From positions 3,767 to 67,766 of the IMG/VR virus record IMGVR_UViG_3300031694_000003: DNA of 64,000 nt. One strand, given 5' to 3'. Below the pieces are notes generated by a model. It had not been told where the DNA came from. It worked only from the letters and a program-made list of their open reading frames with translations, and made no database searches. The first letter of the stretch is position 1. Every line of letters begins with the position of its first letter. The stretch is from a virus (taxonomy: Duplodnaviria; Caudoviricetes). This document shows, piece by piece, positions 8,305 to 45,893 of the stretch. Position numbers and translations under genes: made by a program.

Positions 8305-8492
8305 ATATTGTTAAGATGAATCAGAGATACTGACTTCTTTATAACTCTCATAGAGTATCTTAACCAATGCCGTCCTATTTTGGTTGTAGGCAACAGCTTA
8401 TCCTACGTACTTTCTTTTCTAGGCGTATCTACCTAGATTGCACGTCTGCAATTGTTTATACAGTCCTTGACTGTAATACTCTAATGGGTAGG

Positions 8493-8507
8493 GAAAGAGA
8501 GAGTTTC
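8493..8507 (-). promoter_or_regulatory. Partial copy E of the early repeat (GAAACTCTCTCTTTC)
   Basis: Identical 15-mer at 9099-9113; contains the AACTCTCTC box. Confidence 0.5.
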
Positions 8508-8512
8508 TATAC

Positions 8513-9006: not shown

Positions 9007-9014
9007 TACCTTTG
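9007..9014 (+). promoter_or_regulatory. Possible Bacteroidetes sigma70 -7 element (TACCTTTG), antisense to the early genes
   Basis: Matches TAnnTTTG; TTG/TTTG lies 16-20 nt upstream; intergenic. Confidence 0.35.
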
Positions 9015-9098
9015 GTGGGTAGGTGGTTAAATACTTAATGCAGATGCACTGAACACTTAAATAGAACACATAGTCTATAGTGTTAAAGTGATTGCAGT

Positions 9099-9138
9099 GA
9101 AAGAGAGAGTTTCCAAGACTCTAAAGACACTGTATATC
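9099..9138 (-). promoter_or_regulatory. Degenerate copy D of the early repeat (GATATACA...AAACTCTCTC)
   Basis: Retains GATATACA and AACTCTCTC; lacks AGTGATAGTGA. Confidence 0.5.
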
Positions 9139-9352
9139 AGGCACTTGAAAGCCTAAAACGCAAGAGTGTTACTCCATATCTACTACATATTCCCCTCAAA
9201 TACGTTATATAGGTGGTTCTGGAACATGTCCACACAAACATACACACAAACAAACCGAGTGTACTACTGTGTATGTACTCTGGGGTGATAGTGAGAGCAT
9301 AATAAGAAAAAAGCGAAGACATACCGTAGTACATCTCCGCAATCTAATTAGC

Positions 9353-10120
9353 CTAACCGAAGTTAAGACCGTAATCTGCTGTGCCTGCTGAATCAACAGG
9401 TGCTTTCTCCGTTGTGGACTTAGCATCATCAGATTTCTCAACGCCTGAACAAGACATAAGAGCGCCTCTTGCTGACATCTTAGCTCTAATGTTCGCACCT
9501 TTTAGTGCAAGCAAGTCGTAGTTAAGCTCAGTCTGGAACACGTCAAGCATGTCGCAGTCTTCAAGGATGTGGAATAGCTTCGTAATTATCTTACTTGGCT
9601 TGTTATCCTTCCCTGTCAATCGCTCTACAGTCCAACCTGCTCCTTCAAGAGTAGCAAATAGCTGGTGGTACTGAGGCATCACCTGCAGACCTTTCTTAGC
9701 CAACTGTGTTGCACGGTACTTAGCAAACTCTACTTGACATTGTGCAATCGAGCGTAGTCCGTAAACCACGCGTTCTTCGGTGAATAAGAAGGCCTCTGTA
9801 GCCGTTCTGTAGTCAAGAAGTTCCAATGTCAAACACAAGTTCATACCATCCTTACTACCTGCATTGGTAGCAACAACACTAATCAGTCGCATGTTATGTT
9901 CCACTCCATCATAGCCTGCACGTTTACTGACATCAGTAATCTTTAGACCCGATAGCTCGGACATATACAACGGCATAGCAGGTGTTTCCACAACGGGAAT
10001 AGCCTCTACTACAGCTGTAGCTTGGGGTTGAGCGTCAGTATTTAGCTCTGACGTAGCTGTTGGAGCACCAAACACAAAGTTTGACGCATTCTTAAAGATG
10101 CTGTTTTCAGCCATATCCAT
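9353..10120 (-). CDS. Hypothetical early protein (about 255 aa; probable start MDMAENS at 10120 or 10114 rather than TTG at 10219)
   Basis: Long ORF; the 10219 start falls inside the repeat element. Confidence 0.75.
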   Translation of the reverse strand: MDMAENSIFKNASNFVFGAPTATSELNTDAQPQATAVVEAIPVVETPAMPLYMSELSGLKITDVSKRAGYDGVEHNMRLISVVATNAGSKDGMNLCLTLELLDYRTATEAFLFTEERVVYGLRSIAQCQVEFAKYRATQLAKKGLQVMPQYHQLFATLEGAGWTVERLTGKDNKPSKIITKLFHILEDCDMLDVFQTELNYDLLALKGANIRAKMSARGALMSCSGVEKSDDAKSTTEKAPVDSAGTADYGLNFG

Positions 10121-10208
10121 AAGGGTTGTGCAAGTTTCCGACAGAGGCATAGCCTCCCTTGCGATTAATTTAAGCATCGTACCTCGGATAGTACAATGTA
10201 ATAGTAAT

Positions 10209-10290
10209 GTTGTAGACAATGAGAGAGTTATTTCCTGTATGGGATATGTATATGTATATGGTCACTATCACTAGGAGGCTCTCGCCCCCT
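10209..10290 (-). promoter_or_regulatory. Early repeat copy C
   Basis: AGGGGGC-GAGA-GCCTCCT hairpin, AGTGATAGTGA, 32 nt, AACTCTCTC, ATTGTCTACAAC. Confidence 0.8.
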
Positions 10291-10295
10291 AATAA

Positions 10296-10583
10296 CTAAA
10301 ACCTATCTCCTGGTCTAGGAGCAGTCCACTGTAATTCCTTGGTCAGCTTGGTAGCTGCGAAGTTCAGTACCATCACTCCTTGGCGTGGACTGTTGTACCA
10401 CACACAACCACAGCTTGGGACTTTACTCCCTTTAGCTCTGCAGGTTGTCTGATACTGCATTATCCTCTTCAGTAAGTCAGAGCGTTGCTCTCTTACTTTG
10501 TCGGAGAACTTCCAACCTTTAGATACGTGGCTGTTCTTTGTAGTCCCTGGGTAATTCCATGTTATGTTTATAGTCATACGCAT
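10296..10583 (-). CDS. Hypothetical basic early protein (95 aa)
   Basis: Sits between repeat copies B and C. Confidence 0.65.
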   Translation of the reverse strand: MRMTINITWNYPGTTKNSHVSKGWKFSDKVREQRSDLLKRIMQYQTTCRAKGSKVPSCGCVWYNSPRQGVMVLNFAATKLTKELQWTAPRPGDRF

Positions 10584-10629
10584 GATTCGGATAGTTTAAT
10601 GTCCTTTAGTTAGAACCGATAGGACAATT

Positions 10630-10710
10630 GTTGTAGTTAATGAGAGAGTTCTTTTATATCCTGCAGTAGCTGTGTATATCGTCACTATCACTAGAGGGCG
10701 TGAGCCCCCT
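10630..10710 (-). promoter_or_regulatory. Early repeat copy B
   Basis: AGGGGGC-TCAC-GCCCTCT hairpin, AGTGATAGTGA, 31 nt, AACTCTCTC, ATTAACTACAAC. Confidence 0.8.
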
Positions 10711-10718
10711 GTGTGATA

Positions 10719-11048
10719 CTAGAATGGTAAGTCATCGTTAATCATTTGGTAGAGAGTCTCAATCTCCACCTCTCTAGCGATGATGTTGTCGCCAAGCTGC
10801 TTCTGCTTCTGTTGAAGCTCAGCAATCTGACGAGAGACACGAGCGTGTCTAATCACATCTTGTACGTCATTGTACAATTGGATTGTCATCACCGCAGTGA
10901 TGGTTGTGAACCCTTTGTGGTTGCTAGACTCAAGTCTAAAGCAATCATTGTTGTTCAATGCAGAAGCCACACGTACTGTGAAGTCTGCAGTCTTGATGCG
11001 CAATACAATCTTGCACAATCCTAAGTCCAGGTTTTGAAATCCGTACAT
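10719..11048 (-). CDS. Early coiled-coil protein ending in DDLPF
   Basis: 109 aa; heptad stretch IAELQQKQKQL...; C-terminal DDLPF. Confidence 0.7.
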   Translation of the reverse strand: MYGFQNLDLGLCKIVLRIKTADFTVRVASALNNNDCFRLESSNHKGFTTITAVMTIQLYNDVQDVIRHARVSRQIAELQQKQKQLGDNIIAREVEIETLYQMINDDLPF

Positions 11049-11095
11049 AATCGGTCAGCCATAACACCCATAGGTGCGTGGACGCTGATTCCCAC

Positions 11096-11183
11096 TAGTT
11101 GTAGGCAAGTAGAGAGTTGTTTTCTCCGCCCGTCATTTTATGTGCATATCATCACTATCACTAAGCAAGGTCTCCCCTGCTCA
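11096..11183 (-). promoter_or_regulatory. Early repeat copy A
   Basis: TGAGCAGGG-GAGA-CCTTGCTTA hairpin, GTGATAGTGA, 33 nt, AACTCTCT, ACTTGCCTACAAC. Confidence 0.8.
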
Positions 11184-11191
11184 GCAATTCA

Positions 11192-11548
11192 TTACTCATT
11201 CATTCTGTTCTTGAACTCCTTCATCCCTCTCTTCACTGACTCTTTAGACAAGGCACTGTGAGGTAGCTGTCCTTCAGCTGACCAGTCTTCTGGGTACAAT
11301 GCACAGTGGTCAAGGTAAGCTGACTCCTTCTTGAGGAAGTACATCAGTTCATCTTGTGGAATGTCCTCCACTGCTAATGACCCACCATCGTAGACTAACG
11401 TGCCATCGATGTCAATCCATCCATTTCTTAACTTAATGTTAAGCTTGTTTGCACTGCTGTCAATCAACAAATACAATGCATACACAGCACACACTGCAAG
11501 TATTCCGAACATAACTATTGTAGGCGTATTCATAATCATTGCCGACAC
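11192..11548 (-). CDS. First early gene: N-terminally membrane-anchored hypothetical protein (118 aa)
   Basis: Hydrophobic IVMFGILAVCAVYALYLLI segment. Confidence 0.7.
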   Translation of the reverse strand: MSAMIMNTPTIVMFGILAVCAVYALYLLIDSSANKLNIKLRNGWIDIDGTLVYDGGSLAVEDIPQDELMYFLKKESAYLDHCALYPEDWSAEGQLPHSALSKESVKRGMKEFKNRMNE

Positions 11549-11569
11549 TAAGGTAGTGGCATCTCCATT

Positions 11570-11594
11570 TAGTTGAAGGCAATTAGAGTGTTTC
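11570..11594 (-). promoter_or_regulatory. Partial copy F of the early repeat, upstream of the first early gene
   Basis: tagttgaaggcaattagagtgtt matches copy A tagttgtaggcaagtagagagtt at 20 of 23 nt. Confidence 0.65.
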
Positions 11595-11686
11595 TCAAGT
11601 TAAGGGGGGGCTTCAAAAGTTTCTTAGTGGTAGGGGGCTTTTAACATATAACGTCCACACCCACAAAAACATAAAAAATTTTTAGT

Positions 11687-11694
11687 TATCTTTG
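11687..11694 (+). promoter_or_regulatory. Bacteroidetes-type -7 promoter element (TATCTTTG)
   Basis: TAnnTTTG 26 nt upstream of the first late gene. Confidence 0.6.
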
Positions 11695-11720
11695 GTTAAA
11701 TAATTTAAAAAAAATTCATA

Positions 11721-12203
11721 ATGGGTAAAAGAAAAGTAGTAAAAACGGTAGACGCTAGCGGTAATAAGAAGAAGGTTGTTACTAGAAGAAGCGGGACAGT
11801 TGTAACCAAAACTGAGAGAGATGGTGGTTCTTTAGGTGTTAGAAAGGCTAAACGTGTCACTAAAGCTGATGGTTCTTCTAAGACTAAGTCTACAATCAAA
11901 AAGTCTAATGGCTCTAAGATAAAATCAAAGACAGCTTATAGTGCTGATGGTTCTTCTATAAAGAGAAAAAGCACTTTTAAGGACGGTTATGGTACTAAGA
12001 CTAAGAACAGTTCTTCTAGTAAATCTGATGGTTCTTCAAAATCCAAGTACACGACTAATTCTAAAACTCCTGGTAAGACTTACGTACAAAAAAGTAAAAC
12101 CACTTCTGGCGGTAAAACTACAGAGAAGTATAAAAGCACTAGATTAGGTGAAAATAAAACTAAGAACAAATATTCAAAGGGTGGTTTAGTCCAACATAAT
12201 TAA
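11721..12203 (+). CDS. Very basic Lys/Ser/Thr-rich protein (160 aa), possible DNA-condensing or internal virion protein
   Basis: Repeated DGSSK-like turns; ends YSKGGLVQHN. Confidence 0.65.
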   Translation: MGKRKVVKTVDASGNKKKVVTRRSGTVVTKTERDGGSLGVRKAKRVTKADGSSKTKSTIKKSNGSKIKSKTAYSADGSSIKRKSTFKDGYGTKTKNSSSSKSDGSSKSKYTTNSKTPGKTYVQKSKTTSGGKTTEKYKSTRLGENKTKNKYSKGGLVQHN

Positions 12204-12277
12204 TGATATATTAAAAAAAATTTTATATATTTACGGCAGTTCGTTTTTGGTTAACGGATTATCTGTTCATAATAAGT

Positions 12278-12308
12278 AGGGGGTGATATTGTCACCCTTT
12301 ATTTTTTT
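12278..12308 (+). terminator. Intrinsic terminator
   Basis: GGGGTGAT-ATT-GTCACCCT stem followed by a T-run. Confidence 0.65.
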
Positions 12309-12310
12309 CT

Positions 12311-12318
12311 TATATTTG
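12311..12318 (+). promoter_or_regulatory. Bacteroidetes-type -7 element (TATATTTG)
   Basis: TAnnTTTG immediately after a terminator and before the terminase operon. Confidence 0.55.
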
Positions 12319-12322
12319 ATGT

Positions 12323-33749: not shown

Positions 33750-36700
33750 ATGGCAAACGAAGTAGGTACTCCAAAAGAAGATGTTAAAAAATATGATTTC
33801 AGTTTTGCTACTGAAACTCCATCTATAAGTACGGCTAACGCTACTGTTCCAAGTCAGGGCTCAGTAACCACCGACCAGGGTTTAGAAAAAACCCCCGACC
33901 AAACCTCTCAAGAATTGTTTGGAGGTGGGTTTAGTGACGAACAGAGAACTGATATAGATAAATACAACAAAGCTGTAGCTGCCGAAGAAGGTAAAGAAGC
34001 TAAAGACCATAGTATGGGTTATGGAGAGGCTACTGGTCGTTCTCTTTTGACAGGTTTGGGTGATGTATTTGATGGTTTTGGTGACGCTTTGGATTGGGTA
34101 GATGGTACTCCAGATACAAGATTAGTAGATTCTGAGGTATCAAAAGAGCTTTACGGATTAGATGTACATAAGCCTATCGCAGATTGGTTTCATCAGATGG
34201 GAGCAGACCTACAACAATACGGAGATTCAGTTCCTGGCTTAGAGAACATGGAAGATGTCACTTGGGCTAGTCTTATGGATGCTGATTTCTGGACAACTCA
34301 ATGGGCTAGAAGTATCCCTTTCTCTTTAACCTTCTTCATACCAGGTGCTGGTGGAGCGAGGGCAGCAGGAATGCTATACAAGGGTGGTAAATTACTTAAG
34401 ACAGGTTTTAGTGCAGGTAAAATGCTATCTAGAACAGGTTTAGTTACTGCAGTTAAAGGGTCTAAAATAGCCAAAAGTGCAGTACAGTTCGCTGGTGGTG
34501 CAGCTGCTGGTAACATGTCTGAAGGTGCTATCATCGCAGGACAGACTTTGAATGACGCAATAGAACAAGGAGTGCCATTACCTCAAGCTTCGATAGCTGC
34601 AGCTGATGTATTTAGAGATAACTTATGGTGGATGGCTGTAGATGGTTTACAGTTAGCTATGTTTACAGGTACGGCTAAAGCTTTAAATCCTTTCTCTAAG
34701 AGTATCAGAGCAATGAAAGCTCCTGGTATGAAAAGATTAGTTCAGCAAATGGCTAAGGTTTCTGGGTATGCTTTAACTGATGGGGTTTTCGAACAATTCC
34801 AAGAGGTGTATCAAGATTGGTCTATGAAAAAAAGGATTGCTGAGCAAAAAGGCGAAGGGTTCATGGATTACCTTGACTACTTTAACAGTCAGGAAGCTTT
34901 ACCTACAAGGGTAATTGCCTTTACTTCTTCACTTGCCATTACTGGAGCTAAGACATCTTTAGATGTTTCTGCAGAAAGGAAAAGATTGTTTACTGAAAAG
35001 TTAGCAAAAGATGGTTTAGTACAAGAACGTCTTGAGATAATGAATCAAGAGTTAGAGGATTATGACATGGAGGGTAAAAAAGGAACTCCAGGTGATAGAC
35101 TTACAGCGGTTAAAGCGAAAGAGGAATTGGCAGCAATGCAAAACAATCAGCTTTTCGCTCTTATGATACGTACTATTGCTGACGGTAAAGCAGAAAACTT
35201 TACAGAGTATATACAAAACAGAATGGATGAAGGTGCAATGCCTCAAAGACAGTTTGATATATATGCTAATACAGTAAAAGAATTACAAGCAATAAAAGCA
35301 CTTGCTCCAACTTTCCTATTAAACGGAGAAGAGGAGTCTTATTTGTTACACGCTTTATTCGAGAAAGAACAAAACACAAAGACTTACAAGGAACAACTTG
35401 AAAGACTAGAAGGAGAAAAGGTAAAGATAGAAGAGTCTGATATAAGTATTGCTTATAAGAAGAAGCAGATTGCTGGGTTGGATAATGAGCTATCTAACCT
35501 TGCTGAGACGTGGAAGAAAGTAAAGCAAGCTACCAAATTGAAGGTGGACGATATAATGAGCGACAACGCTAATCGCCGTCAAGAGGAAAGAATAAACAAG
35601 GAAGTTGTACCAGAGCTAAAAAAGATAATAGCTAAAGAAGCTAAGAACGAAACCTTAACTGCTGAGGAGACAAAGCTTGTAGAGGAGAATAAGTCTAGGT
35701 TTGAGTCTATTAAATCTAATGAAAGACTAAAGGACGCTACTAAAAAAGTAGGTAAAAATTTCACTAAGGTAACTAACCCAGTAAAAGACAATACAGATTT
35801 AATCTTTCAAAAAGAATTAAAATCTAAAGGTAAGTTCCGTAAATACCAAGAAAAAAGAGTTGATGCTAATGGTGTCGTAACCACCACTACTACTACTGAA
35901 ATAGATATTGTAAAGACGTCTAATGAGTATCAGGAAAGTAGAGAGAATAAAGAGTTACAAGTAGAAGATATAGTTACTAAGCAAAACAATGGTGACCAAA
36001 TATCTAATGAAGAGAAAGAGCTTTTAAAGACAGAGAAAGTTCTACACGAAAAGGTAAAAGCAAAAAAAGCAGAAGCCTTAGAAGCAGAGGAAGCAGCTAA
36101 ATTAAAAGCAGAAGAGAAAGAAGCTGAAGAAAAAACTGAGGAAGGGAAAGCAAAGAGCAAGGAAGAGACTGAGCGTAATGCTGCTCAAAAGATAATAGAA
36201 GATTCAAAGGCTAAATTGTTCTTTGGTTTAGCTCCTAGATTTATAGACCCTAAGACGGGTAAACTGACTGAGGCTACTCAAATTACAATGGGTCAAAGAT
36301 ACCAATGGGCTCAAGGGTTAATGAATGACAATCCAGATGTTGGTGTGTATTTTGACAGCAACTTAACTGATGAACATGGTAGAGGTGCTCAAGGAGCAGC
36401 TATAGGTTTGTCTATCTTTATCAACCCTGACTTAGCAACACAAGAGGTATTTCTTCATGAGAAATGGCATGTATTGCAGCAGTTATTTGCAGGCACTAAA
36501 GAGATTACAGCTCTATTGAAAGAAGTTGTTAGTCAGCCTATATATAAGCAAATAAAAAACCAACATCATGTTAAAATTATATACTCTAAGAATGGTTCAA
36601 ACACATCACTAGGCTCAATACTACAAGACAATCCTAGCATGTTATCGTGGACTAATTGGACTAAAGAGAACGGGTTTACTAATGCACCAAACCCTTCAGT

Positions 36701-39700
36701 TTACTCTTCTTATATGGCTTATTTAGCTCCTCTATTATCGGAGTTAGGATATACTCAACTTGCTGATAACCAGCAAAGCGACATACAAAATGAAGCTTTA
36801 GCTACGGCTGGTGGATTCCAGGAAGCTAATGATTCTACTTACTTCACTCAATCTAAGAGAGAGACTAAATTCCAGAAAGGATTAAAGTCTGCTTGGAAGA
36901 TGATAAGCACAATGCTTAACAAGGAGGCTTCTACAGAAATCATTAGAAGCAACTTCCCTTCATTGTACAACGAAGACTTCTCTATTATGTTAGAGAATGC
37001 ACGTGAAGAGTTTTCTAAACCAAACAAAGAAAGAAACTACGAAGCTTTTAAAAGAGTGGATGGAGTGTTCTATTTACAGAATGTAGATAAGTCATTCGCT
37101 AAATCTAGCTTAGAACAAGCTATGTTAGCTAACCTACCTACTATTGACTCTCAAGTTAATGCTGTATTGAATAGGTTTACAAACACAAAAGGAGGCATGC
37201 CAGAAGATATGGATATGCGTTCAATGATAAATGACTTATTTAGTAATAGAAGTACTCTTATGCCTACTCTATTAGACCATTCTAAGTATGGTTTAGATAA
37301 GAGTCAGAAAGATATTATAGATAAATACTACAACAGCAATGCGTCTGAGGTAGATAACTTGTTGGGAGGTTTCTATTTCCAACAACTACAAGAGAAGGTT
37401 TCTGAAAGACACGAATCAGGAGCTATTAATGAAGAGATGTATGAGGAGTTAGAGGCTACCACAGAGGTTGCTTTTGGTAAGATTATATCTGAAGACTTTA
37501 GTAGAAAAGTAAGTGGTAGAGTCTCAAAACTTGTTGGTCAGTTCTTAGATGAACACAATAAAGACAAGACAGGTAAAGAGATAAAAAACAAATCATTCCT
37601 ATACGAAGCACTAGAAGAGCAGTTAAGAGGTACGAAGCATGACTTTCATTTGTTTGAAGAGAATGTGGAGACTATTATAACTAACTCTAAAGTTTCTTTA
37701 ATAGAGGGTGTGGAGAAAATAACAAAAGAAGAGCTTTTAGCTGAGTTTGTTATATACGCTCAATTAGAAATGGCTCACCCTGGAGATGTTTTACACTCTA
37801 TGTGGCACTACTTCCGTTCTTTCACATTAGAACGTGCTAGTCAATGGACTGTATCTAAAGATGGTAAAGTGTCTTTGGTTGCTAGTATACCTGTTGGTAA
37901 CGCTAGAGACGTTAGAAACTACGTCAATGGAAGTATAGAGTTGTTAGCTGATGGAGAGAACTCTACAGAAAACATTTTTATAGTTGCAGTACTAGAAGGG
38001 ATAAGGGTTAAAAAAGTTTTATCAGAAGAAGGTACGGAAGCTGCTTTTAAAGAAAAGATGGCTAATCAAATAAGTAGGGAAAAGAATATATTAAATTTTG
38101 TGCAGAAGTTCTACAAAGAATGGGTAAGCAATAAAAATATATATTATGAGGATATAGCTGATATGAAAATTGAAGGTAAGAAGCTGCATAGCTTTTTTAC
38201 TGACGAGAAGATAACAGAACTACAAGTTTCTCTTTTGAATATAGATTGGAGCTATTACCATAAAGAAGGTGTAGACACAGAAAGTAGACAATATCTAGAA
38301 AGTCAGATTAATGACATAGCAAACTCTGATAAGCGTATAGTTGGAAGTGCGGTTAAATTAAATGCTAAAGGTGTAAAAGAGGCAGTTTTAAGAACATACC
38401 TTATTAATGCTTTACGGGAAGATTATAAAAGATGGATAAACCTAGAGGAAAGCGAGCAAGTAAAAACTAAAGGGAAGAACATTTTATTTCGTGAGAACAA
38501 AAAAAGTTCTATACATTCTTATAAAGACAACTTCCAGTCTGCGTTTAAGTCTCTATACACGAACCTCTATAACGCTACATACTACCATGCAGGTAGAACA
38601 GCTTTATCAGGTATAACTAAAAACGCAGCAGGAGATACTGTAGACTTATTTACTAAGTCATCTAACATTCATAACAACCTAGAGACCCTATTAAGAATCT
38701 TACCAAAGATGGATAATAAAAGGTTTGAAAAACTTTTTGGTGGAAACTTAATTGCTTTCATAATGAAGCATAATGATTATGTACCTACAATAAGTACTAG
38801 TCTAGGTGTTTATAACGAAGGGGAATCTAAAGGTAAAAAGAACTCTCAAGTTAAAGCAAGAGTTCTTACCAACATGAGAATGATGCACCTTGTAGATAGC
38901 ATCTTAAACGACTCAAGCTACTATAGTCATTTTGTCGGTCAGCTTGGAGATTCAAGTAGACAATATTATATAGACAACGCACCTGTATGGTCTGATTCAG
39001 ATTTAGAAACAGCTTTTGTTTCTATTCAGAAAATGGTTAACAAGCCTACAAACATTGTTGAGGTAGGAGAAAAATTGTTTGACCAGCTTGTAGAAGATGG
39101 GCATATAAAAAACAAAGAAGACGAAAAAATAAAGCAGGCAGTTATTAAAGCTGCTAAGATGAATTACGTAAATAAGTATAGTTTTTCTGACCTTTATTAC
39201 AACAGAACTAATGCACAAATAAAGTATGATGTATCTGGAGGTAAGGTAGAGAGATTAGTTACAGACTTATCTAAGCGTGTAAAGGGTATATCATCACCGC
39301 TTATAACTGCTCACGGGAAAAGAATAGAGCCTATAATCATAAAAGACCCTAGACCTTTAGGTATGCAGGTTGCTGATTCAGCTTCATACATAACTCCAGA
39401 GTACGCTAAGCTTTTAAAGATACAGTATGGAGAGTTTGAGGATATAGGTAAAAACCTAAAGTCATTGTACTACGGTCAGAATATGGACAACACTCAATTT
39501 GAGAACCAAATGGGAGCTGTTCGTATACCTATGTATCTTAAAACTCACACACACGTACTAACGAAAGATGCTATAAAAAAGCACCCTAACTTACAGTACA
39601 TAAAAGATGTTCTTGATTACAGAGCTAAGCTACTAAACAACAACACTATACCTATCGTTTACTTTGATAGCTCTATTAAGGGTGGTTTAGTTCAGAGTCA

Positions 39701-42700
39701 AAAGGATAAAATGTCTTACTCTATGGAGGACATTAAGAATATTTCTGATGTTATAAAAAAGAATAAACCAACAGGAAACCTTTTCAGTAAGAAACAGGAT
39801 GACTTGTATAAGTTTACAGACGAACAAGGTAACGCATCATACGGATTTGATGGAGAGAGCTTTGGTATACAAAACACATTAGATAATACAAATAAGACAT
39901 CTATACTCTCTAAGCAATACGCTTCAAATACAGGAGTACTTAATACGATTTCTAACTTCGAGCAGTTAGGAATGACTGGAGTTGCGGCTTTAGGAAGAGT
40001 AAACGAATTACTTGGTAGCATAAAGTTAGCTCAATACGAAGAGAACTTTAAGAATAAAGACTTTGAAGAAATCTATACTGAAAGAGCGAAAGACCTTTAC
40101 AGCTGGATGGATGGAAGAGCCGTTGATGAGTTAGGTTCTAGCTACATGGGTAATGTGCATTTTTACAATAACATTATAGCAAGTAACTTCAAGAAGAATG
40201 TAATGCAAACTAGGCTTCCTGGAACTCTTTCAACAGAGATGACGGATATTGGTTTTAACTATGTAATAGGTAAAGAAAATACTATTGAAGATGAGACCTT
40301 AAAGTCTTATAGAATAGAGGATGGTAAAGTACAGGTTGCTGAAATAGTAATATCAAAAACTCTTGCTACACAAAATGGTGTTAAGGTAGGGGATTTAGTA
40401 TTTGCAGCTCGTATACCGAACTCTAAAATAGGGGATGGATTAGTCTTTAGAGTTAAAGAGATACTTAGTAATCAAGAAGGTAATGCAGTAATTATACCTT
40501 CTAGACATGCAGCTCTTATTGGTTCAGATAAAGATGGTGACCAGTTACACATTGCAGTACTAAACAAGAAAGACGAGTCTAAGTTAAAGGCATCTGAAAA
40601 ACTTAAAAACGATTTACTAAGCTTCCTATTTGAATTGTATCAACAACCAGAAATGATGGAGCTTATTCTACAAGAGGTAGACTTTAGTTCAAGCATTACA
40701 GATAAGGGTTTAAATCATATTAAAAACAACAAGCTTACTGAGAGCGAGCGTAAGGAATTTGAGAGAGAGAAGGATGATTTAAGTATAATGGACGAGCAAG
40801 ATATTCAAGATAGATTCATTGGAAACAATGTTATGCTTGGGATTGTAGCTTCATTAAACAGAGCCTTCAATTATTTCGCATCTGGAATAGGAGCTCAAAG
40901 GAACAATCAACTTAAAACTCAGATTAGATACCAAGAAGGTAAGCCTTTAAACTTTACTATAATAAACTCTTTAGGTAAGGTTGAGAAGTTAGGCTATATA
41001 GAAAACATAACAGACAACGATGAGAAGTCTTGGTTAAGCTACGCTCAGTTCTTAAACTTCATTATAGATGATGGTAAGTTTGGTAATAGAGCTAAATTTA
41101 AAATGCAAGAAGAGAGTGCAAACCACTTTGCTTTCATGTTGAGAATGGGACTTTCTTTAGAGACTGTTATTGATGTTATGTATGATAAGACTTACGTAAG
41201 CTACATTAAGGCTTTAGGTTCAGGTCTTACTAAGACTGAGGCCTTGAAGAAGGTTTCACAAATGAGCAGTATAAATAGAAGTACTGAAAGTGTTACTGCA
41301 AACTACAGAATAGATTTATCTGACGTAGGTGGCTTTGGTAATAATTTGTTTGCTTTTAATTCATTGATAGTTGCTTTAGATTCTTTCGGTAAAGAGATGA
41401 GAATATTCCAAAGAATGGCTTCTCTTGATAGCAAGATACCTACAAATTACTTTGAGGCTTATGTACTTGGAGAGCAGTTTAAGGATGCTATGAAGAATCA
41501 AATCTCAATGGCTTCTATGTTTAATAGAAACAGCGATTTAACAAGCCAGTTAGAGTTGTTTAATATATACAAAGAACAGAAACTACAAGAATCAATTATA
41601 TCACAAGCAGACGCTAAGCTGATATATGACAACTTGAGTAAGACGTTAGATTTAACTAAGCCAGAGAACGTAAGGTTTGTATATGACGCATTGCAATACA
41701 ACAAGATGGCGGTGTACATGAATCCTACAGCTCTTTCTACGGGTAACAAATCGCATAAAGGTGGTACGTTTACTGATTTACTATTTAATTATAGTACTAT
41801 TTCCATAGAAGAAACTAATCAATTGGAAGCTAAGTATTCTGATAGAGAATTGTTAGAAGAGAAGCTTAAAGTTATAAACGACAACGCAGCTCAACTGATT
41901 GAAGAATATGGAAACAACGGGTTTATACAACTACTAGACTTAAAGAAGAGTAGAAAAACATTTAGACAGTACGGAAATGCTGTTAGACCTACCGTGAAGT
42001 ATTGGAATGATATAAAATTCAACAGAGAATCTTATGATGCTATTCGTTCTGAAGAGAACTTAAAACAATTAAGAGACGAGTTCAGTAAGTTGCCAGACGC
42101 ATTACAAAACTACCTTATATCTTATGAGTTCTTTAACAACAAGTTAGGGACTGACGGAGGTAGTACTATGCTTATGTTTATGCCTTCAAATGTTAGAAAC
42201 GAAGTAAAGAGAACTTCTAACTTTATAGCTAACCCTAAAAATAGAGCTAAGAATAATGTACAAAACGAGATGATTCATGCAAATGAGTTACTAGCTGGTT
42301 CTGATTACATATTCGCAGACGAGAAGATTAAAAAGGCTATAGATGTAGATTTAAATAACAGCATGTTATTCTTATTTAGAATGGCTGAGATACTTCAAGC
42401 TTTTTCTTCTAAAAAACTACTTAACGCTTTAAATTCATTTCAACAAAAGAGTTCACTTTCAGAACAAACTTATATAGAAAACAAGAAGGATGGGACTAAG
42501 GTTTACCATTCAATGCAAGCTCCTATTATTAGTAAGATGGACACAGATAAGGTTAAGCATTTATCTAAAAATGATAAAACAGGTAAGTACAAAAACAAAA
42601 CTTTATTTGAAATATCGTGGGAATACAGAACAGAAATAAATGGAGTAAAAAGCGAACCTAAACCAAGTTACATAGGGATATTTGGTGACTTAAACTTGTC

Positions 42701-45700
42701 TGAGTTAAACGCTATACTTACATACAATGGACCATTACAAGCTAATTATAAGAAATTAAAAGAAAATGGTACGTTCTATTTACATGACCAAAACGCTAGT
42801 AGTTTTATGTTTGGTCAAGATTCTAGCTACAGTCTAGATGAGTTTGCAAAAGAAAAAGGATTAATTAAATGGTCTTCTTCTGTTGCTAATCTAGAGGAAG
42901 ATAACCACGCTAAGTTCAATCAAATAAAAGCTGACTACACTGGTTATAAAAACAGTTTAGATGCAGTAAAAGAGCTTAGAAATAATCTATACAGAAATCC
43001 AAACATCTTTAGAGTTGTTAAGGACGAGGAAGGTAAAGATATTTCATTTACTAAGGAGCAAAACTTAAAGTTCGCAAAAGAATTACCTGGTCGTATAACA
43101 GAATACTACAACCAACTAACAAACGAACACCCTTTAGCTAAAGATATGTTAGCTAAGGAATTACAGTTTATGTACGGGGAAGCTATGAGCAACGAGCAAA
43201 TGGCTTACTGGGGTAAGACTGATGAAGGTGCTAGACTGTTAGGTAAGGTATCTAATGATGATAGAACTTCAGATATTACAGTAGCAGAGATGTGGTTTGG
43301 TGTAGGTGACTTTGGTCAGAACCACCCAACCTTAGCTTCTGCTAGAAGAAACTTAGAGCGTGGTAATCAATTAATGCATCGTGATTTAAAAAGAATGACC
43401 GATGAATTAAACGAATCTTACAACGACCTATACAAGAGTAAGTATGGTATAAGAACAGGAGTAGTTAAATTCTTCTCTCGTATGCCTGTCTTAAGTCTAT
43501 TGAAGTCTAGCGAAAGCGTTTCAGATAAACTGTTTGAGAACTTGTTATTTAGACAATCTAAAATCAAAAGAAGACACGAAGGCGGTAAAGAGATTATAGA
43601 TTACGAAACTACTCATGAATTAAACGAATCTATGTTCTTTGAAGATAATAGGTTAAGACCTAATCTTCATAAGCTTATAAACTTAGACGGACAAAGACTG
43701 TTTTCTGATGCAGAAATAAACTATGCAGGAGTTATCTCTAGATACACTCAATTCTATAGTGCCTTATCTAAACAAAAAGGATTATACACTCAAGACCGTA
43801 ACTTCTACGCTCCACTTGCTGATTCAAGTAAAATGGAGATTCTTAGAAAGAGAGGAATCTATGGATTGTATTACCAATTCTTTGGAGCTAGAGGAGACAT
43901 CAATAGCATTAAAGTTAAAGGCTTTAATCCTTTATCTAATAGAGAAGAAGTGAAAACCTATGGAGAGTTTCAGGCTATATATAGTGCGAGTCAAGAAGAT
44001 GTAAAGCTATTCGCTAAAGAAAACCCTGGAGAGAAAATAAATACTGCTCACTTTAAATCTATAAACTCTATAAGACAAATGGAGGCTCTTAAAACGAAAG
44101 CTTTAGGATACCTTGCTAAAGGGATAGATATAGAAGGTAAGAAGATAGTAAGAAAAGATGGTGTAAATGAGGTAGTTACGGCAGAAAGTCAAAGTTTCAA
44201 CAGGTATACATCATCTCGTTCGCACAGAGCTGCTTATCTTGCTAGTGGAAACTTACAGTACGCTATGTATAGTTATGTGAAGACTATGGTATTCCAACAT
44301 GGTACAGAGTTCTACGATGGATACAACTATAACAGGCTAGAATTCCAAGTACCAGGAAAGAACTCTACAAGCAGAAAGAAAGAAAGTAAGTTATTGATAG
44401 GTAAGAATGCTCACAGTAAGTCCACTCAGGATTTAGCAGCGAGAGCAGTTAAAGGAACTCTATCTGTAGAGATGGCTCAGAAGTACGCAGTACCTGCCTT
44501 CCAAGGATTTGATGCTTATAAGTTTCAGATAGGAGCAGCAATGACATACCTTAAAAATAGTGGTGCGTTGTCTGCAAATTCTGTTAAGTATCTACAGGAG
44601 AACATGTTAGAGTCTTTTATATTACAAAAACCTAAAAGAACAATCAGCCCATTCCCTGAAGTAGAGAAGAAAGTTATAACCTCTTTCGTTAATTTAACAA
44701 TGAGAGTTGGTTTAGGTCTTAACTTCACTGCGGCTATGTTTAACATCGCTATTGGTAAGTACAACGCTTGGCGTTCGCAGGGTACTGCAAACTTCGTTAA
44801 GGCTCACTTTAGAGCTTTAGGTTTAACAAAGATTGGTAGTGCTTTCAGTTTTAAGAACTCAAGAAAAACTCTACTTATATTACAAGAGTTTGGTATACTA
44901 ACTTATAGACCAGAAGAACAATTAGAAGGTGCTAAATATGAAACTTACTTAGATAAGATATTATTTTGGCCTATGGTAACTGCTGAACGTTTTATACAGG
45001 AGATACAGTTTGTTGGAGAAATGAGTGACGAACAATGGAACTCTTACGATATAGATGATAAGGGTAACCTTATTGTTGTAGATAAAGATAATATCCTTTC
45101 TGTAGATGATGTAGCTAGACTACAAAGACGTGTACAGAACATGCAAGGTCGTGGATATTCCGCAGTAGACCAGAGACTAATACAACAATACGTAATAGGT
45201 TCTGCAGCTCTACAATTCAAGAGATGGTTTCCAACATTCTTAGCTGATAGAATAGGTAGAGGTGGTTACATGGATTACATAGATGATTTTGGTGATATAT
45301 ATACTGGTACTTTAAAAGCCTTCGCTACTGAAGGAGATAAAGTTAAGCTAGCTAAATATATAAACCCATTAGAGTACGTGAAATTTGCATTGAATCCAAA
45401 CTTATGGAATCCTTCAATGAAGTCTAACGAAGAGTATATCAAAGACGGTCTTTCTAAATCTCAAACTGAAGCCCTACAAAGACTTCATAGAGGTATGATG
45501 GGGATTGTTATGGTAGCAGCCTTACTTTTAATGTCTGGAGAAGATGATGAAGAGTTAGATAAACTTCTTACAGATATGCTTCTTATGGTTAATATAGAAA
45601 AGGTAGGTAAGATGATTATAATGCCAGCCTTTAGTACGTTCCAAAATGTGTTTGAATTAGTTGTAGCTATCGCTGCAAGAACAGAATACAAAAGAGATAG

Positions 45701-45893
45701 TAAGTATGGTAAGCGTGGAGATAAGAAGTGGAGAAGAAACGCTGCAGCTCTAATTCCTAACATAGGAATCCCTGGAGATGATAAGGCAAACCTTAAATAT
45801 GCAATGTTTGGTTCTGAAGATTCAGGTAACGAACAGAAGCGAGAAAGGAACAGAATGAGAAGAAAGCGTAAGGAGAAATTTGGACGCAATTAA
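33750..45893 (+). CDS. Giant virion-associated RNA polymerase polyprotein (4047 aa) with a zincin-like domain
   Basis: Catalytic DxDGD motif GSDKDGDQL (40527-40541) preceded by ARIP; HEKWH (36456-36470) with downstream NEALA; crAss-like position. Confidence 0.85.
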   Translation: MANEVGTPKEDVKKYDFSFATETPSISTANATVPSQGSVTTDQGLEKTPDQTSQELFGGGFSDEQRTDIDKYNKAVAAEEGKEAKDHSMGYGEATGRSLLTGLGDVFDGFGDALDWVDGTPDTRLVDSEVSKELYGLDVHKPIADWFHQMGADLQQYGDSVPGLENMEDVTWASLMDADFWTTQWARSIPFSLTFFIPGAGGARAAGMLYKGGKLLKTGFSAGKMLSRTGLVTAVKGSKIAKSAVQFAGGAAAGNMSEGAIIAGQTLNDAIEQGVPLPQASIAAADVFRDNLWWMAVDGLQLAMFTGTAKALNPFSKSIRAMKAPGMKRLVQQMAKVSGYALTDGVFEQFQEVYQDWSMKKRIAEQKGEGFMDYLDYFNSQEALPTRVIAFTSSLAITGAKTSLDVSAERKRLFTEKLAKDGLVQERLEIMNQELEDYDMEGKKGTPGDRLTAVKAKEELAAMQNNQLFALMIRTIADGKAENFTEYIQNRMDEGAMPQRQFDIYANTVKELQAIKALAPTFLLNGEEESYLLHALFEKEQNTKTYKEQLERLEGEKVKIEESDISIAYKKKQIAGLDNELSNLAETWKKVKQATKLKVDDIMSDNANRRQEERINKEVVPELKKIIAKEAKNETLTAEETKLVEENKSRFESIKSNERLKDATKKVGKNFTKVTNPVKDNTDLIFQKELKSKGKFRKYQEKRVDANGVVTTTTTTEIDIVKTSNEYQESRENKELQVEDIVTKQNNGDQISNEEKELLKTEKVLHEKVKAKKAEALEAEEAAKLKAEEKEAEEKTEEGKAKSKEETERNAAQKIIEDSKAKLFFGLAPRFIDPKTGKLTEATQITMGQRYQWAQGLMNDNPDVGVYFDSNLTDEHGRGAQGAAIGLSIFINPDLATQEVFLHEKWHVLQQLFAGTKEITALLKEVVSQPIYKQIKNQHHVKIIYSKNGSNTSLGSILQDNPSMLSWTNWTKENGFTNAPNPSVYSSYMAYLAPLLSELGYTQLADNQQSDIQNEALATAGGFQEANDSTYFTQSKRETKFQKGLKSAWKMISTMLNKEASTEIIRSNFPSLYNEDFSIMLENAREEFSKPNKERNYEAFKRVDGVFYLQNVDKSFAKSSLEQAMLANLPTIDSQVNAVLNRFTNTKGGMPEDMDMRSMINDLFSNRSTLMPTLLDHSKYGLDKSQKDIIDKYYNSNASEVDNLLGGFYFQQLQEKVSERHESGAINEEMYEELEATTEVAFGKIISEDFSRKVSGRVSKLVGQFLDEHNKDKTGKEIKNKSFLYEALEEQLRGTKHDFHLFEENVETIITNSKVSLIEGVEKITKEELLAEFVIYAQLEMAHPGDVLHSMWHYFRSFTLERASQWTVSKDGKVSLVASIPVGNARDVRNYVNGSIELLADGENSTENIFIVAVLEGIRVKKVLSEEGTEAAFKEKMANQISREKNILNFVQKFYKEWVSNKNIYYEDIADMKIEGKKLHSFFTDEKITELQVSLLNIDWSYYHKEGVDTESRQYLESQINDIANSDKRIVGSAVKLNAKGVKEAVLRTYLINALREDYKRWINLEESEQVKTKGKNILFRENKKSSIHSYKDNFQSAFKSLYTNLYNATYYHAGRTALSGITKNAAGDTVDLFTKSSNIHNNLETLLRILPKMDNKRFEKLFGGNLIAFIMKHNDYVPTISTSLGVYNEGESKGKKNSQVKARVLTNMRMMHLVDSILNDSSYYSHFVGQLGDSSRQYYIDNAPVWSDSDLETAFVSIQKMVNKPTNIVEVGEKLFDQLVEDGHIKNKEDEKIKQAVIKAAKMNYVNKYSFSDLYYNRTNAQIKYDVSGGKVERLVTDLSKRVKGISSPLITAHGKRIEPIIIKDPRPLGMQVADSASYITPEYAKLLKIQYGEFEDIGKNLKSLYYGQNMDNTQFENQMGAVRIPMYLKTHTHVLTKDAIKKHPNLQYIKDVLDYRAKLLNNNTIPIVYFDSSIKGGLVQSQKDKMSYSMEDIKNISDVIKKNKPTGNLFSKKQDDLYKFTDEQGNASYGFDGESFGIQNTLDNTNKTSILSKQYASNTGVLNTISNFEQLGMTGVAALGRVNELLGSIKLAQYEENFKNKDFEEIYTERAKDLYSWMDGRAVDELGSSYMGNVHFYNNIIASNFKKNVMQTRLPGTLSTEMTDIGFNYVIGKENTIEDETLKSYRIEDGKVQVAEIVISKTLATQNGVKVGDLVFAARIPNSKIGDGLVFRVKEILSNQEGNAVIIPSRHAALIGSDKDGDQLHIAVLNKKDESKLKASEKLKNDLLSFLFELYQQPEMMELILQEVDFSSSITDKGLNHIKNNKLTESERKEFEREKDDLSIMDEQDIQDRFIGNNVMLGIVASLNRAFNYFASGIGAQRNNQLKTQIRYQEGKPLNFTIINSLGKVEKLGYIENITDNDEKSWLSYAQFLNFIIDDGKFGNRAKFKMQEESANHFAFMLRMGLSLETVIDVMYDKTYVSYIKALGSGLTKTEALKKVSQMSSINRSTESVTANYRIDLSDVGGFGNNLFAFNSLIVALDSFGKEMRIFQRMASLDSKIPTNYFEAYVLGEQFKDAMKNQISMASMFNRNSDLTSQLELFNIYKEQKLQESIISQADAKLIYDNLSKTLDLTKPENVRFVYDALQYNKMAVYMNPTALSTGNKSHKGGTFTDLLFNYSTISIEETNQLEAKYSDRELLEEKLKVINDNAAQLIEEYGNNGFIQLLDLKKSRKTFRQYGNAVRPTVKYWNDIKFNRESYDAIRSEENLKQLRDEFSKLPDALQNYLISYEFFNNKLGTDGGSTMLMFMPSNVRNEVKRTSNFIANPKNRAKNNVQNEMIHANELLAGSDYIFADEKIKKAIDVDLNNSMLFLFRMAEILQAFSSKKLLNALNSFQQKSSLSEQTYIENKKDGTKVYHSMQAPIISKMDTDKVKHLSKNDKTGKYKNKTLFEISWEYRTEINGVKSEPKPSYIGIFGDLNLSELNAILTYNGPLQANYKKLKENGTFYLHDQNASSFMFGQDSSYSLDEFAKEKGLIKWSSSVANLEEDNHAKFNQIKADYTGYKNSLDAVKELRNNLYRNPNIFRVVKDEEGKDISFTKEQNLKFAKELPGRITEYYNQLTNEHPLAKDMLAKELQFMYGEAMSNEQMAYWGKTDEGARLLGKVSNDDRTSDITVAEMWFGVGDFGQNHPTLASARRNLERGNQLMHRDLKRMTDELNESYNDLYKSKYGIRTGVVKFFSRMPVLSLLKSSESVSDKLFENLLFRQSKIKRRHEGGKEIIDYETTHELNESMFFEDNRLRPNLHKLINLDGQRLFSDAEINYAGVISRYTQFYSALSKQKGLYTQDRNFYAPLADSSKMEILRKRGIYGLYYQFFGARGDINSIKVKGFNPLSNREEVKTYGEFQAIYSASQEDVKLFAKENPGEKINTAHFKSINSIRQMEALKTKALGYLAKGIDIEGKKIVRKDGVNEVVTAESQSFNRYTSSRSHRAAYLASGNLQYAMYSYVKTMVFQHGTEFYDGYNYNRLEFQVPGKNSTSRKKESKLLIGKNAHSKSTQDLAARAVKGTLSVEMAQKYAVPAFQGFDAYKFQIGAAMTYLKNSGALSANSVKYLQENMLESFILQKPKRTISPFPEVEKKVITSFVNLTMRVGLGLNFTAAMFNIAIGKYNAWRSQGTANFVKAHFRALGLTKIGSAFSFKNSRKTLLILQEFGILTYRPEEQLEGAKYETYLDKILFWPMVTAERFIQEIQFVGEMSDEQWNSYDIDDKGNLIVVDKDNILSVDDVARLQRRVQNMQGRGYSAVDQRLIQQYVIGSAALQFKRWFPTFLADRIGRGGYMDYIDDFGDIYTGTLKAFATEGDKVKLAKYINPLEYVKFALNPNLWNPSMKSNEEYIKDGLSKSQTEALQRLHRGMMGIVMVAALLLMSGEDDEELDKLLTDMLLMVNIEKVGKMIIMPAFSTFQNVFELVVAIAARTEYKRDSKYGKRGDKKWRRNAAALIPNIGIPGDDKANLKYAMFGSEDSGNEQKRERNRMRRKRKEKFGRN

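What the first reader, a model, noticed from the sequence alone, without database searches (positions are those of the whole stretch)
10209..11594. Repeated hairpin + AGTGATAGTGA + fixed spacer + AACTCTC/CTACAAC element upstream of the first early genes: candidate promoter for the virion RNA polymerase
Seen: three full copies on the minus strand (11096-11183, 10630-10710, 10209-10290). Each has a 7-9 bp hairpin with a 4-nt loop (GAGA, TCAC, GAGA) whose stem sequence varies while pairing is kept, then AGTGATAGTGA, a short (C/G)ATAT(A/G)CA, a non-conserved spacer giving 33/31/32 nt to AACTCTC, and CTACAAC. The downstream half alone recurs before the first early gene (11570-11594, 20/23 identical to copy A) and at 9099-9138 and 8493-8507. 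These sites show no Bacteroidetes TAnnTTTG, whereas that element precedes five late gene blocks. Known: crAss-like phages such as phi14:2 inject an RNAP that transcribes early genes, and N4 vRNAP uses DNA-hairpin promoters; I am not aware of a defined promoter for crAss-like vRNAPs. Inference: this is the early promoter architecture for the 4047-aa polymerase in this window, or a combined terminator and re-initiation unit.
Basis: partly seen in the sequence, partly recalled or inferred. Interest (0 to 1): 0.85.

Follow-up and report, generated by a model that had tools for sequence, protein, structure and literature searches.

The report
Early-gene junction: RNA hairpin plus promoter-like box
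In an uncultured marine crAss-like phage, each junction between the first small genes carries an RNA-type hairpin that closes one gene. This is followed by a separate 21-base box that probably starts the next gene, and the box is a testable candidate for the still-undefined start signal of the RNA polymerase these phages inject.

Summary
Three full units lie on the minus strand, and the downstream box occurs six times, always on that strand and between genes, within the first 3.1 kb of the leftward gene block.

The N4-like "hairpin promoter" reading is not supported. The unit is two separable modules.

1. **Hairpin module.** A 13-16 bp stem, capped by GAGA or GAAA in 8 of the 9 units compared, pairs the stop-codon region of the upstream gene with the invariant TAGTGATAGTGA. 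22% of its pairs are G·U. It is stable only as sense-strand RNA (-19 to -24 kcal/mol) and weak as template-strand DNA. It is absent from three of the six boxes, and its distance to the box varies among relatives (19-49 nt). I read it as an RNA 3'-end element (terminator, attenuator or stabiliser).

2. **CT-box module.** AACTCTCTnnTTnnCnnCAAC precedes four genes and two non-coding regions, has lineage-specific variants in relatives, and is the likelier early promoter. No transcript data could be obtained.

The 4047-aa protein does fold like the phi14:2 virion RNA polymerase.

One point is unexplained: the reverse complement of the 11-mer, TCACTATCA, is a family-wide sense-strand intergenic motif.

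This scan has noted similar candidate promoters in at least 88 other crAss-like genomes.

The parts
11572..11592 (-). CT-box F (AACACTCTAATTGCCTTCAAC), first copy. It lies in the divergent intergenic region, 53 nt upstream of the ATG of early gene 1. It has no hairpin and no 11-mer.
   Evidence: Weight-matrix score 25.5 bits. Distance to ATG. Sequence.
11192..11539 (-). Early gene 1 (115 aa from the ATG; 118 aa from a GTG at 11548). No family match; private to this genome.
11157..11188 (-). Unit A hairpin: 14-bp stem, GAGA loop. The 3' arm runs into AGTGATAGTGA (11162-11152) and the 5' arm starts just after the stop codon of gene 1.
   Evidence: RNA fold -20.0 kcal/mol for the sense strand against -6.4 for the antisense strand, z = -6.1. 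10 Watson-Crick and 4 G·U pairs.
11098..11118 (-). CT-box A (AACTCTCTACTTGCCTACAAC), 33 nt after the 11-mer and 70 nt before the ATG of gene 2.
   Evidence: 28.1 bits; distances.
10719..11048 (-). Early gene 2 (109 aa). Weak match to PHROG 8657 of unknown function.
10683..10721 (-). Unit B hairpin: 7-bp upper stem with a TCAC loop, extended by TATCAC pairing with GTGATA. The 11-mer is at 10692-10682.
   Evidence: RNA fold -19.8 kcal/mol.
10630..10650 (-). CT-box B (AACTCTCTCATTAACTACAAC), 31 nt after the 11-mer and 67 nt before the ATG of gene 3.
   Evidence: 31.3 bits.
10296..10583 (-). Early gene 3 (95 aa). Homologues sit in L009 (55% identity) and L097 (57%) in the same kind of cassette.
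10267..10296 (-). Unit C hairpin: 13-bp stem, GAGA loop. The 11-mer is at 10272-10262.
   Evidence: RNA fold -23.6 kcal/mol for the sense strand against -11.1 for the antisense strand.
10209..10229 (-). CT-box C (AACTCTCTCATTGTCTACAAC), 32 nt after the 11-mer and 52 nt before the ATG of gene 4.
   Evidence: 30.7 bits.
9353..10177 (-). Early gene 4 (274 aa). It is the only early protein shared across the wider family (L016, L097, L020).
   Evidence: No Pfam or PHROG match. Weak DUF669/SSB-like lead only.
9313..9340 (-). Canonical intrinsic terminator (12-bp stem followed by TTTTTT) that ends the early gene block.
   Evidence: It is the first, and by stem length and T run the clearest, of five minus-strand sites that the hairpin-plus-T-run scan reports in 8000-12400, and the only one placed at the end of the early gene block.
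9286..9294 (-). TCACTATCA in sense orientation (the reverse complement of the 11-mer core), just after the terminator. It is the local copy of a family-wide motif.
9091..9111 (-). CT-box D (AACTCTCTCTTTCACTGCAAT), preceded by GATATACA but with no hairpin. It heads a conserved non-coding stretch.
   Evidence: 30.4 bits. The region downstream is conserved in L016 and L029.
8485..8505 (-). CT-box E (AACTCTCTCTTTCCCTACCCA), directly after the stop of the 122-aa gene and about 180 nt upstream of a tRNA-like RNA noted by this scan.
   Evidence: 23.2 bits. Scan note e1-5989201.
33750..45893 (+). 4047-aa virion-type protein with a gp66-like two-barrel RNA polymerase module. GSDKDGDQLH lies at residues 2258-2267.
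   Evidence: AlphaFold model of residues 1950-2650 (pLDDT 70.5). Best PDB match 6vr4_A, E = 3.6e-9, probability 1.0. The motif is invariant in 10 homologues.

Best explanation
Each of the three units is the junction between two consecutive early mini-cistrons. It consists of two independent modules.

**Module 1: hairpin.** This is an RNA hairpin formed in the sense transcript. The stop-codon region of the upstream gene pairs with the invariant TAGTGATAGTGA, giving a 13-16 bp stem that is usually GNRA-capped. I infer that it marks the 3' end of the upstream message, either by stopping or attenuating the polymerase or by protecting the 3' end after processing.

**Module 2: CT-box.** AACTCTCTnnTTnnCnnCAAC lies 31-33 nt further on. 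I infer that it is the phage-specific early promoter, or at least the start-of-unit signal, for the next gene.

The box also stands alone in front of the first early gene and in front of two non-coding RNA regions. No host-type -7 box exists on this strand, and the phage carries a gp66-like virion polymerase. So the injected polymerase is the likeliest reader of the box.

Shown: the anatomy, the strand specificity, the modularity, and the confinement of the boxes to the head of the leftward block. Inferred: termination, initiation, and which polymerase acts.
For: **CT-box**
- There are six boxes in the 67.8-kb genome. All are on the minus strand, intergenic, and within 8485-11592. No other hit exceeds 13.6 bits.
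- The first box sits in the divergent intergenic region, where a promoter is required. Boxes D and E precede conserved non-coding DNA rather than ORFs.
- Relatives keep a pyrimidine-rich box at the same places with lineage-specific sequence: L009 and L097 AACnCTCTCnTTnnCAGCAA; L016 GAGTCTTTT; L020 TTTTCTTCTTC; L045 CCTGYTATTCTTCTCTTT in 7 copies.
- TAnnTTTG is found only before plus-strand blocks.

**Hairpin**
- RNA folds are -19 to -24 kcal/mol for the sense strand against -6 to -17 for the antisense strand.
- 28 of 128 predicted pairs are G·U. With DNA parameters the template strand gives only -2.2 to -7.1 kcal/mol.
- In the outer helix, 96% of 81 cells are paired. Seven of nine pairs change on one side only (AU to GU, UG to CG), while slid registers give 19-67%.
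- Eight of nine loops are GAGA or GAAA.

**Modularity**
- The hairpin-to-box distance is 33/31/32 nt here, 25 and 19 in L009, and 31 in L097. It is 27 and 49 in L016.
- Three of the six boxes lack a hairpin.
- In L045 a different hairpin abuts the box.

**Cassettes**
- Genes between junctions are shuffled among relatives.
- L097 carries gene 3 directly behind the first box.

**Polymerase**
- Fold match to the phi14:2 virion RNAP.
Against: - There is no transcript 5' or 3' end data. The two tools that could have given metatranscriptome evidence were unavailable.
- The hairpins lack the U-tract that two-barrel polymerases normally need for intrinsic termination. The block's own last terminator has one.
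- A pyrimidine run is an unusual core for a promoter. In some relatives (L045, L089) it directly follows a hairpin and could be read as a terminator tail.
- The invariance of the 11-mer is not explained by pairing alone. Its reverse complement is a family-wide sense-strand motif.
- phi14:2, the only studied gp66 system, shows no common early motif.
Confidence: 0.48

Rival explanations
1. The whole unit is one promoter for the virion polymerase, working like the N4 early promoters. A DNA hairpin is extruded and recognised together with AGTGATAGTGA, and the CT-box lies at or near the start site.
For: - There are three copies with the same order of parts and near-constant spacing within this genome.
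- Stem sequence varies while pairing is kept.
- The phage has an injected-type polymerase.
- phi14:2 gp66 prefers single-stranded templates in vitro.
Against: - Three of six boxes, including the one before the first early gene, have no hairpin or 11-mer.
- Spacing ranges from 19 to 49 nt in relatives.
- The template strand would carry A·C mismatches, and DNA-parameter folds give -2.2 to -7.1 kcal/mol.
- N4 hairpins have 5-7 bp stems with 3-nt loops centred at -11 on the template strand, and are read by a T7-like enzyme (PMC4496689). Here stems are 13-16 bp with 4-nt loops, about 50 nt from the box, and the enzyme is two-barrel.
- Relatives at 83% terminase identity (L020, L096) have the box but no hairpin unit.
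Confidence: 0.1
2. The 11-mer acts as double-stranded DNA. It is an inverted copy of the family-wide TCACTATCA box, which is either a second promoter class or the site of a DNA-binding factor. In this clade it would then fire, or bind, antisense to each early gene, and the hairpin would be secondary.
For: - CACTATCA occurs 69 times in sense orientation on the early strand of 84 related loci, against about 12.6 expected. It is mostly intergenic, often right after a terminator hairpin, and often extended to TTCACTATCAYYATGCGCGGTAG.
- In this genome all seven TCACTATCA copies lie in the leftward block, against a shuffle mean of 0.8.
- Sense copies lie 50-175 nt upstream of CT-boxes in L045, L052 and the window.
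- The 3' arm of the hairpin is invariant while the 5' arm adapts to it.
Against: - Inverted copies occur only inside the hairpin units of this narrow clade, plus one similar hairpin in L089.
- The flanks of inverted and sense copies share nothing beyond the core.
- A pure DNA-site model does not explain why the upstream flank is kept complementary through G·U pairs.
- No plus-strand gene lies downstream of the inverted copies other than the late block.
Confidence: 0.2
3. The early block is one polycistronic transcript from a single promoter in the divergent region. The hairpins are processing or stability sites, as with the RNase III sites between T7 early genes. The CT-box is a 5'-leader element (translation or stability signal), or merely the homology that lets gene cassettes recombine.
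For: - The hairpins lie between cistrons, and the stop codon is embedded in the stem.
- Cassette gain and loss has break-points inside the box, as seen by comparing L097 with L009.
- Box-to-ATG distances of 36-70 nt before protein genes are compatible with a leader element.
- Bacteroidota translation does not rely on Shine-Dalgarno pairing (my own knowledge).
Against: - Boxes D and E are 154 to more than 200 nt from any ORF of 40 aa or more, and head conserved non-coding regions.
- The box drifts between phage lineages, as expected for a phage-encoded reader rather than host ribosomes.
- Stems of 13-16 bp are short for RNase III.
Confidence: 0.2

Closest known systems
Early promoters P1-P3 of coliphage N4, read by the injected virion RNA polymerase (review PMC4496689)
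   Same: An injected giant virion polymerase is presumed to read a few repeated signals at the head of the early region. Inverted repeats with a variable stem and conserved flanking bases are present.
   Different: - N4 hairpins are 5-7 bp stems with 3-nt loops, form on the template DNA strand, are centred at -11 and are obligatory for every promoter. The enzyme is T7-like.
- Here the hairpin is 13-16 bp with a 4-nt loop and is stable only on the sense strand.
- It is absent from half of the boxes and lies at a variable distance from them.
- The enzyme is a two-barrel gp66 type.
Early transcription of crAss-like phage phi14:2 by gp66 (bioRxiv 10.1101/2020.03.07.982082; PDB 6VR4)
   Same: - The polymerase fold is the same.
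- The layout is similar: a few small early genes, followed by long, presumably transcribed non-coding intergenic regions, and then replication genes.
   Different: For phi14:2 no common motif was found upstream of early transcripts, and I found no comparable repeat in its early region. This marine clade has an obvious 21-nt box.
T7-group phage promoters and the T7 early region (my own knowledge)
   Same: A box of about 20 bp recurs in one orientation before successive units. The hairpins lie between cistrons, as the RNase III sites R0.3-R1.3 do, leaving a 3' hairpin on each message.
   Different: - There is no sequence relation in the box, and the polymerase class is different.
- T7 early genes are read by host RNAP.
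- T7 RNase III stems are longer and carry internal loops.
Rho-independent terminators
   Same: A GC-rich stem-loop lies directly after a stop codon.
   Different: No T/U run follows hairpins A-C. The terminator scan does not call them, whereas it calls the one at 9340-9313.

Membership tests
N4-type hairpin promoter of a virion RNA polymerase | Read by a T7-like single-subunit virion RNAP | tested here: not met
   The polymerase module matches the two-barrel phi14:2 gp66 (6vr4_A, E = 3.6e-9), followed by P23-45 gp96 and QDE-1. No T7-like hit was found.
N4-type hairpin promoter of a virion RNA polymerase | Small hairpin (5-7 bp stem, 3-nt loop) that forms on the template DNA strand | tested here: not met
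   Stems are 13-16 bp with 4-nt loops, and 22% of pairs are G·U. Template-strand DNA folds give -2.2 to -7.1 kcal/mol, and in 5 of 8 units the main helix is lost. Definition from PMC4496689.
N4-type hairpin promoter of a virion RNA polymerase | The hairpin is part of every early promoter, at a fixed distance from the start site | tested here: not met
   Three of six boxes lack the hairpin. The distance to the box is 19-49 nt among relatives. Start sites themselves are unknown.
Phage-specific RNAP promoter (conserved box of about 20 bp) | Conserved box repeated in one orientation in intergenic DNA ahead of transcription units, and confined to one temporal class of genes | tested here: met
   Six boxes of 23-31 bits, all on the minus strand, all intergenic, all in 8485-11592. 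Variants occur at the same places in relatives.
Phage-specific RNAP promoter (conserved box of about 20 bp) | Primary transcripts start at a fixed position in the box and depend on the phage polymerase | not testable with these tools
There is no cultured relative: the best major-capsid match among phage records is 23% identity.
Intrinsic (rho-independent) terminator | GC-rich stem-loop immediately followed by a T/U run | tested here: not met
   The stem-loop is present, but the tails read GTGATGATAT and the like. The scan calls only 9340-9313 in the early block.
RNase III-type intercistronic processing hairpin (T7 early region) | Intercistronic double-stranded RNA stem of about two helical turns that is cleaved to leave a 3' hairpin | tested here: inconclusive
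   The intercistronic position and RNA-type stem are met. The stem is only 13-16 bp, and cleavage cannot be tested.
Lambda nut-like antitermination site (boxB hairpin plus linear box) | Hairpin with a conserved GNRA-like loop recognised by a phage protein, next to a conserved linear box in the RNA | tested here: inconclusive
   Eight of nine loops are GAGA or GAAA, but unit B has TCAC. No N-like protein was identified.

The most novel reading that the evidence does not exclude
The phage family uses two private signal classes. The CT-box is the long-sought promoter of the injected crAss-type polymerase. The TCACTATCA box is a second-phase promoter.

In this clade the second box is built, inverted, into the 3' hairpin of every early gene. 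Second-phase transcription would then run antisense across each early gene and switch it off. The G·U-rich stems would make the hairpins stop sense transcripts but not antisense ones.
Probability: 0.1. Interest if true: 0.85.

Novelty: new variant of a known kind. Interest (0 to 1): 0.58.

Why it matters
The promoter read by the injected two-barrel RNA polymerase of crAss-like phages has not been defined. The only experimental study found no common motif.

This marine clade offers a sharply delimited 21-base box. It has six copies on one strand, confined to one 3-kb region, with lineage-specific variants in relatives. A strand-specific hairpin can be separated from it. That gives concrete templates for in vitro transcription and for end-mapping.

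The analysis also warns against carrying the N4 hairpin-promoter model over to these phages by analogy.

The shuffled promoter-gene-hairpin cassettes show how these phages trade early, presumably host-takeover, genes.

Tried and rejected
- **DNA searches.** A blastn search of the 3.9-kb region against 50,697 phage records gave no match. Searching IMG/VR with the composite pattern gave 14 loci, of which only L009 was a true relative; the rest were chance or coding.
- **Protein searches.** Searching with the 274-aa early protein found no close relative. The single metagenome scan, using the 95-aa early protein, gave one locus, L097.
- **RNA families.** Rfam had no credible family in 8000-11800.
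- **Polymerase.** It had no Pfam, PHROG, PDB-sequence or tblastn match. Only the fold search identified it.
- **phi14:2.** Its early region shows no comparable repeat.
- **Alignment.** MAFFT could not keep the upper stems in register. The formal pair count therefore covers only the nine outer pairs, and the shuffle control there is uninformative because the 3' arm is invariant.
- **Rejected readings.** I considered the CT-box as the U-tail of a terminator and rejected it for this clade, because the box lies 19-33 nt from the hairpin. I considered the conserved A/T block of the divergent region as part of the early promoter and rejected it, because it is the upstream part of the plus-strand TATCTTTG host-type promoter.
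Full report
**What the window is.** The window is 64 kb of a 67.8-kb contig. Several results identify it as a crAss-like phage:
- One protein matches the Pfam crassvirus muzzle protein (E = 2.6e-120) and another matches a P22-type portal.
- The major head protein is distantly related to that of Flavobacterium crAss-like phages.
- The 4047-aa protein (33750-45893) has no sequence-level match to any family or solved structure.
- Residues 1950-2650 of that protein, modelled with nine homologues (pLDDT 70.5), match the phi14:2 virion RNA polymerase 6VR4 best (E = 3.6e-9, probability 1.0). P23-45 gp96 and QDE-1 follow.
- GSDKDGDxLH is invariant in the family.

So the phage does carry a gp66-type injected polymerase.

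Genes on the minus strand run leftwards from 11548. Plus-strand genes start at 11721.

**The observation.**
- A 21-nt weight matrix built from the copies here and in two relatives finds exactly six boxes in the whole genome. They start at 11592, 11118, 10650, 10229, 9111 and 8505.
- All six are on the minus strand and intergenic, and they score 23-31 bits against 13.6 for the next best hit.
- The exact 11-mer AGTGATAGTGA occurs three times, only in the three full units.
- Host-type TAnnTTTG boxes occur in intergenic DNA only on the plus strand, before five gene blocks.

**The hairpin is longer than described and strand-specific.** Folding each unit shows that the stop-codon region of the upstream gene pairs with TAGTGATAG, giving 13-16 bp stems.
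- Sense-strand RNA energies are -19 to -24 kcal/mol (z = -4.4 to -7.3). The antisense strand gives -6 to -17.
- Of 128 predicted pairs, 28 are G·U. With DNA parameters the template strand gives only -2.2 to -7.1 kcal/mol.
- In nine units from four genomes, the nine outer pairs are formed in 96% of cells. Seven of these pairs change on one side only (A-U to G·U, U·G to C-G), and slid registers give 19-67%.
- A telling pair is L009 unit 3 against L097. The flanking proteins are 96% identical, but the 5' arm reads GTCG in one and ATTA in the other, and both pair with the invariant TGAT.
- Eight of nine loops are GAGA or GAAA.

This pattern is that of an RNA helix in the early transcript. It is not that of an N4-type hairpin, which forms on the template DNA strand, has a 5-7 bp stem and a 3-nt loop centred at -11, and is obligatory for each promoter (PMC4496689).

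**The unit is modular.** A terminase search found 283 relatives in IMG/VR.
- The full hairpin-plus-11-mer module occurs only in the closest clade: this window, L009, L016/L017 and the Tara scaffold L097. One similar hairpin occurs in distant L089.
- The distance from the 11-mer to the box is 33/31/32 nt here, 25 and 19 in L009, and 31 in L097. It is 27 and 49 in L016.
- In every genome the first box, in the divergent intergenic region, has no hairpin.
- L020 and L096 (83% terminase identity) have a single early gene, no junction and no hairpin, but they do have a box.
- In L045 the box is CCTGYTATTCTTCTCTTT, in seven copies. At gene junctions the upstream flank pairs with CCTGCT, so a different hairpin abuts the box.

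The common rule is that a hairpin appears only where a gene ends just upstream. Its 3' arm is a conserved motif, and the 5' arm is recruited to pair with it.

**The CT-box as promoter candidate.** The box heads four protein genes, at 52-70 nt from the ATG here and 36-59 nt in L009 and L097. It also heads two non-coding regions:
- Box D precedes a stretch conserved in L016 and L029.
- Box E precedes the tRNA-like RNA noted earlier by this scan.

Its sequence drifts between lineages: AACTCTCTC, GAGTCTTTT, TTTTCTTCTTC, TTCTTCTCTTT, TTAATCCTTCC. Its position is kept. This is what one expects of a signal read by a phage-encoded protein.

Genes between junctions are shuffled. Only the 274-aa gene 4 is shared widely, gene 3 is shared with L009 and L097, and genes 1 and 2 are private. 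L097 looks like L009 with its first two cassettes removed by a crossover inside the box.

The block ends with a canonical terminator at 9340-9313.

**What remains unexplained.** The reverse complement of the 11-mer core, TCACTATCA, is a family-wide motif.
- On the early strand of 84 related loci it occurs 69 times in sense orientation, against about 12.6 expected. It is mostly intergenic, often just after a terminator hairpin, and often extended to TTCACTATCAYYATGCGCGGTAG.
- Here it follows the early terminator at 9294-9286. Three more copies lie inside leftward genes. All seven copies in the genome are in the leftward block.
- Sense copies tend to lie 50-175 nt upstream of a CT-box.

The invariance of the 11-mer may therefore reflect a DNA-level function on top of pairing. 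I keep this as a rival and as the novel case.

**Literature.** The phi14:2 study states that early transcripts made by gp66 had no detectable common upstream motif. I found no later paper that defines a crAss-type virion polymerase promoter. P23-45, another phage with a two-barrel virion polymerase, uses an AT-rich motif. phi14:2 itself has no comparable repeat in its early region.

**Verdict.**
- The N4-like composite promoter reading is unlikely (about 0.1).
- All functional steps are inferred, because no transcript data could be reached.
- This scan holds about a hundred similar notes on other crAss-like genomes. None is on DNA related to this window.

Noticed in passing
window 9286-9294 (-), also 7759-7767, 5919-5927, 3215-3223 (-); L052, L059, L063, L064, L075 and others: TCACTATCA, often extended to TTCACTATCAYYATGCGCGGTAG, is a family-wide sense-strand motif of the leftward block. 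There are 69 sense copies against 10 antisense in 84 loci. It usually lies in intergenic DNA just after a hairpin. It is possibly a second promoter class or a factor site.
   Followed up: partly
window about 8890-9090 (-); L016, L029, L045, L052: This is conserved non-coding DNA after box D. It contains two copies of CTATTTA(TAT)TTAAGTGTT, each followed by a small hairpin, and an invariant AACCACYTACCCACCAAAGGTA. It has no Rfam match and is probably a structured early RNA, as with the highly transcribed intergenic regions of phi14:2.
   Followed up: partly
window 11595-11680 (-) and 9215-9260 (-): A GT-rich block (GTGGGTGTGGACGT / GTGTGTGGACATGT) lies 70-130 nt upstream of box F and box D. Between it and box F, relatives keep GCCCCC, AAACTTTTG and CCCCCC blocks. 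Their function is unknown.
   Followed up: no
window 11687-11694 (+): The conserved A/T block of the divergent region (AAAAACATAAAAAATTTTT on the plus strand) lies just upstream of the host-type box TATCTTTG, 34 nt before the first plus-strand gene. So it belongs to the rightward promoter, not to the early one.
   Followed up: partly
window 9353-10177 (-): This is the only early protein conserved across the family (274 aa). It has no family match. The ESM Atlas gives a weak structural lead to DUF669/phage SSB-like proteins (TM 0.34), which is of interest because N4 virion transcription needs an SSB. It is a lead only.
   Followed up: partly
L097:1-60 compared with L009:340-400 and 1100-1140: L097 joins the upstream flank of L009's first box to the leader of L009's third gene. 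This looks like a cassette deletion or insertion by recombination inside the CT-box.
   Followed up: partly
L089:1-3000 (early strand): A distant relative (65% terminase identity) carries eight copies of TTTTTTACTATTAATAATA at the heads of its small early genes, several directly after hairpin-plus-CTCTCTTTTTT terminators.
   Followed up: no
window 4503-7158 (-): A glutamine amidotransferase and an amidoligase lie in the leftward block (PHROG matches). The scan has already noted this pair.
   Followed up: no
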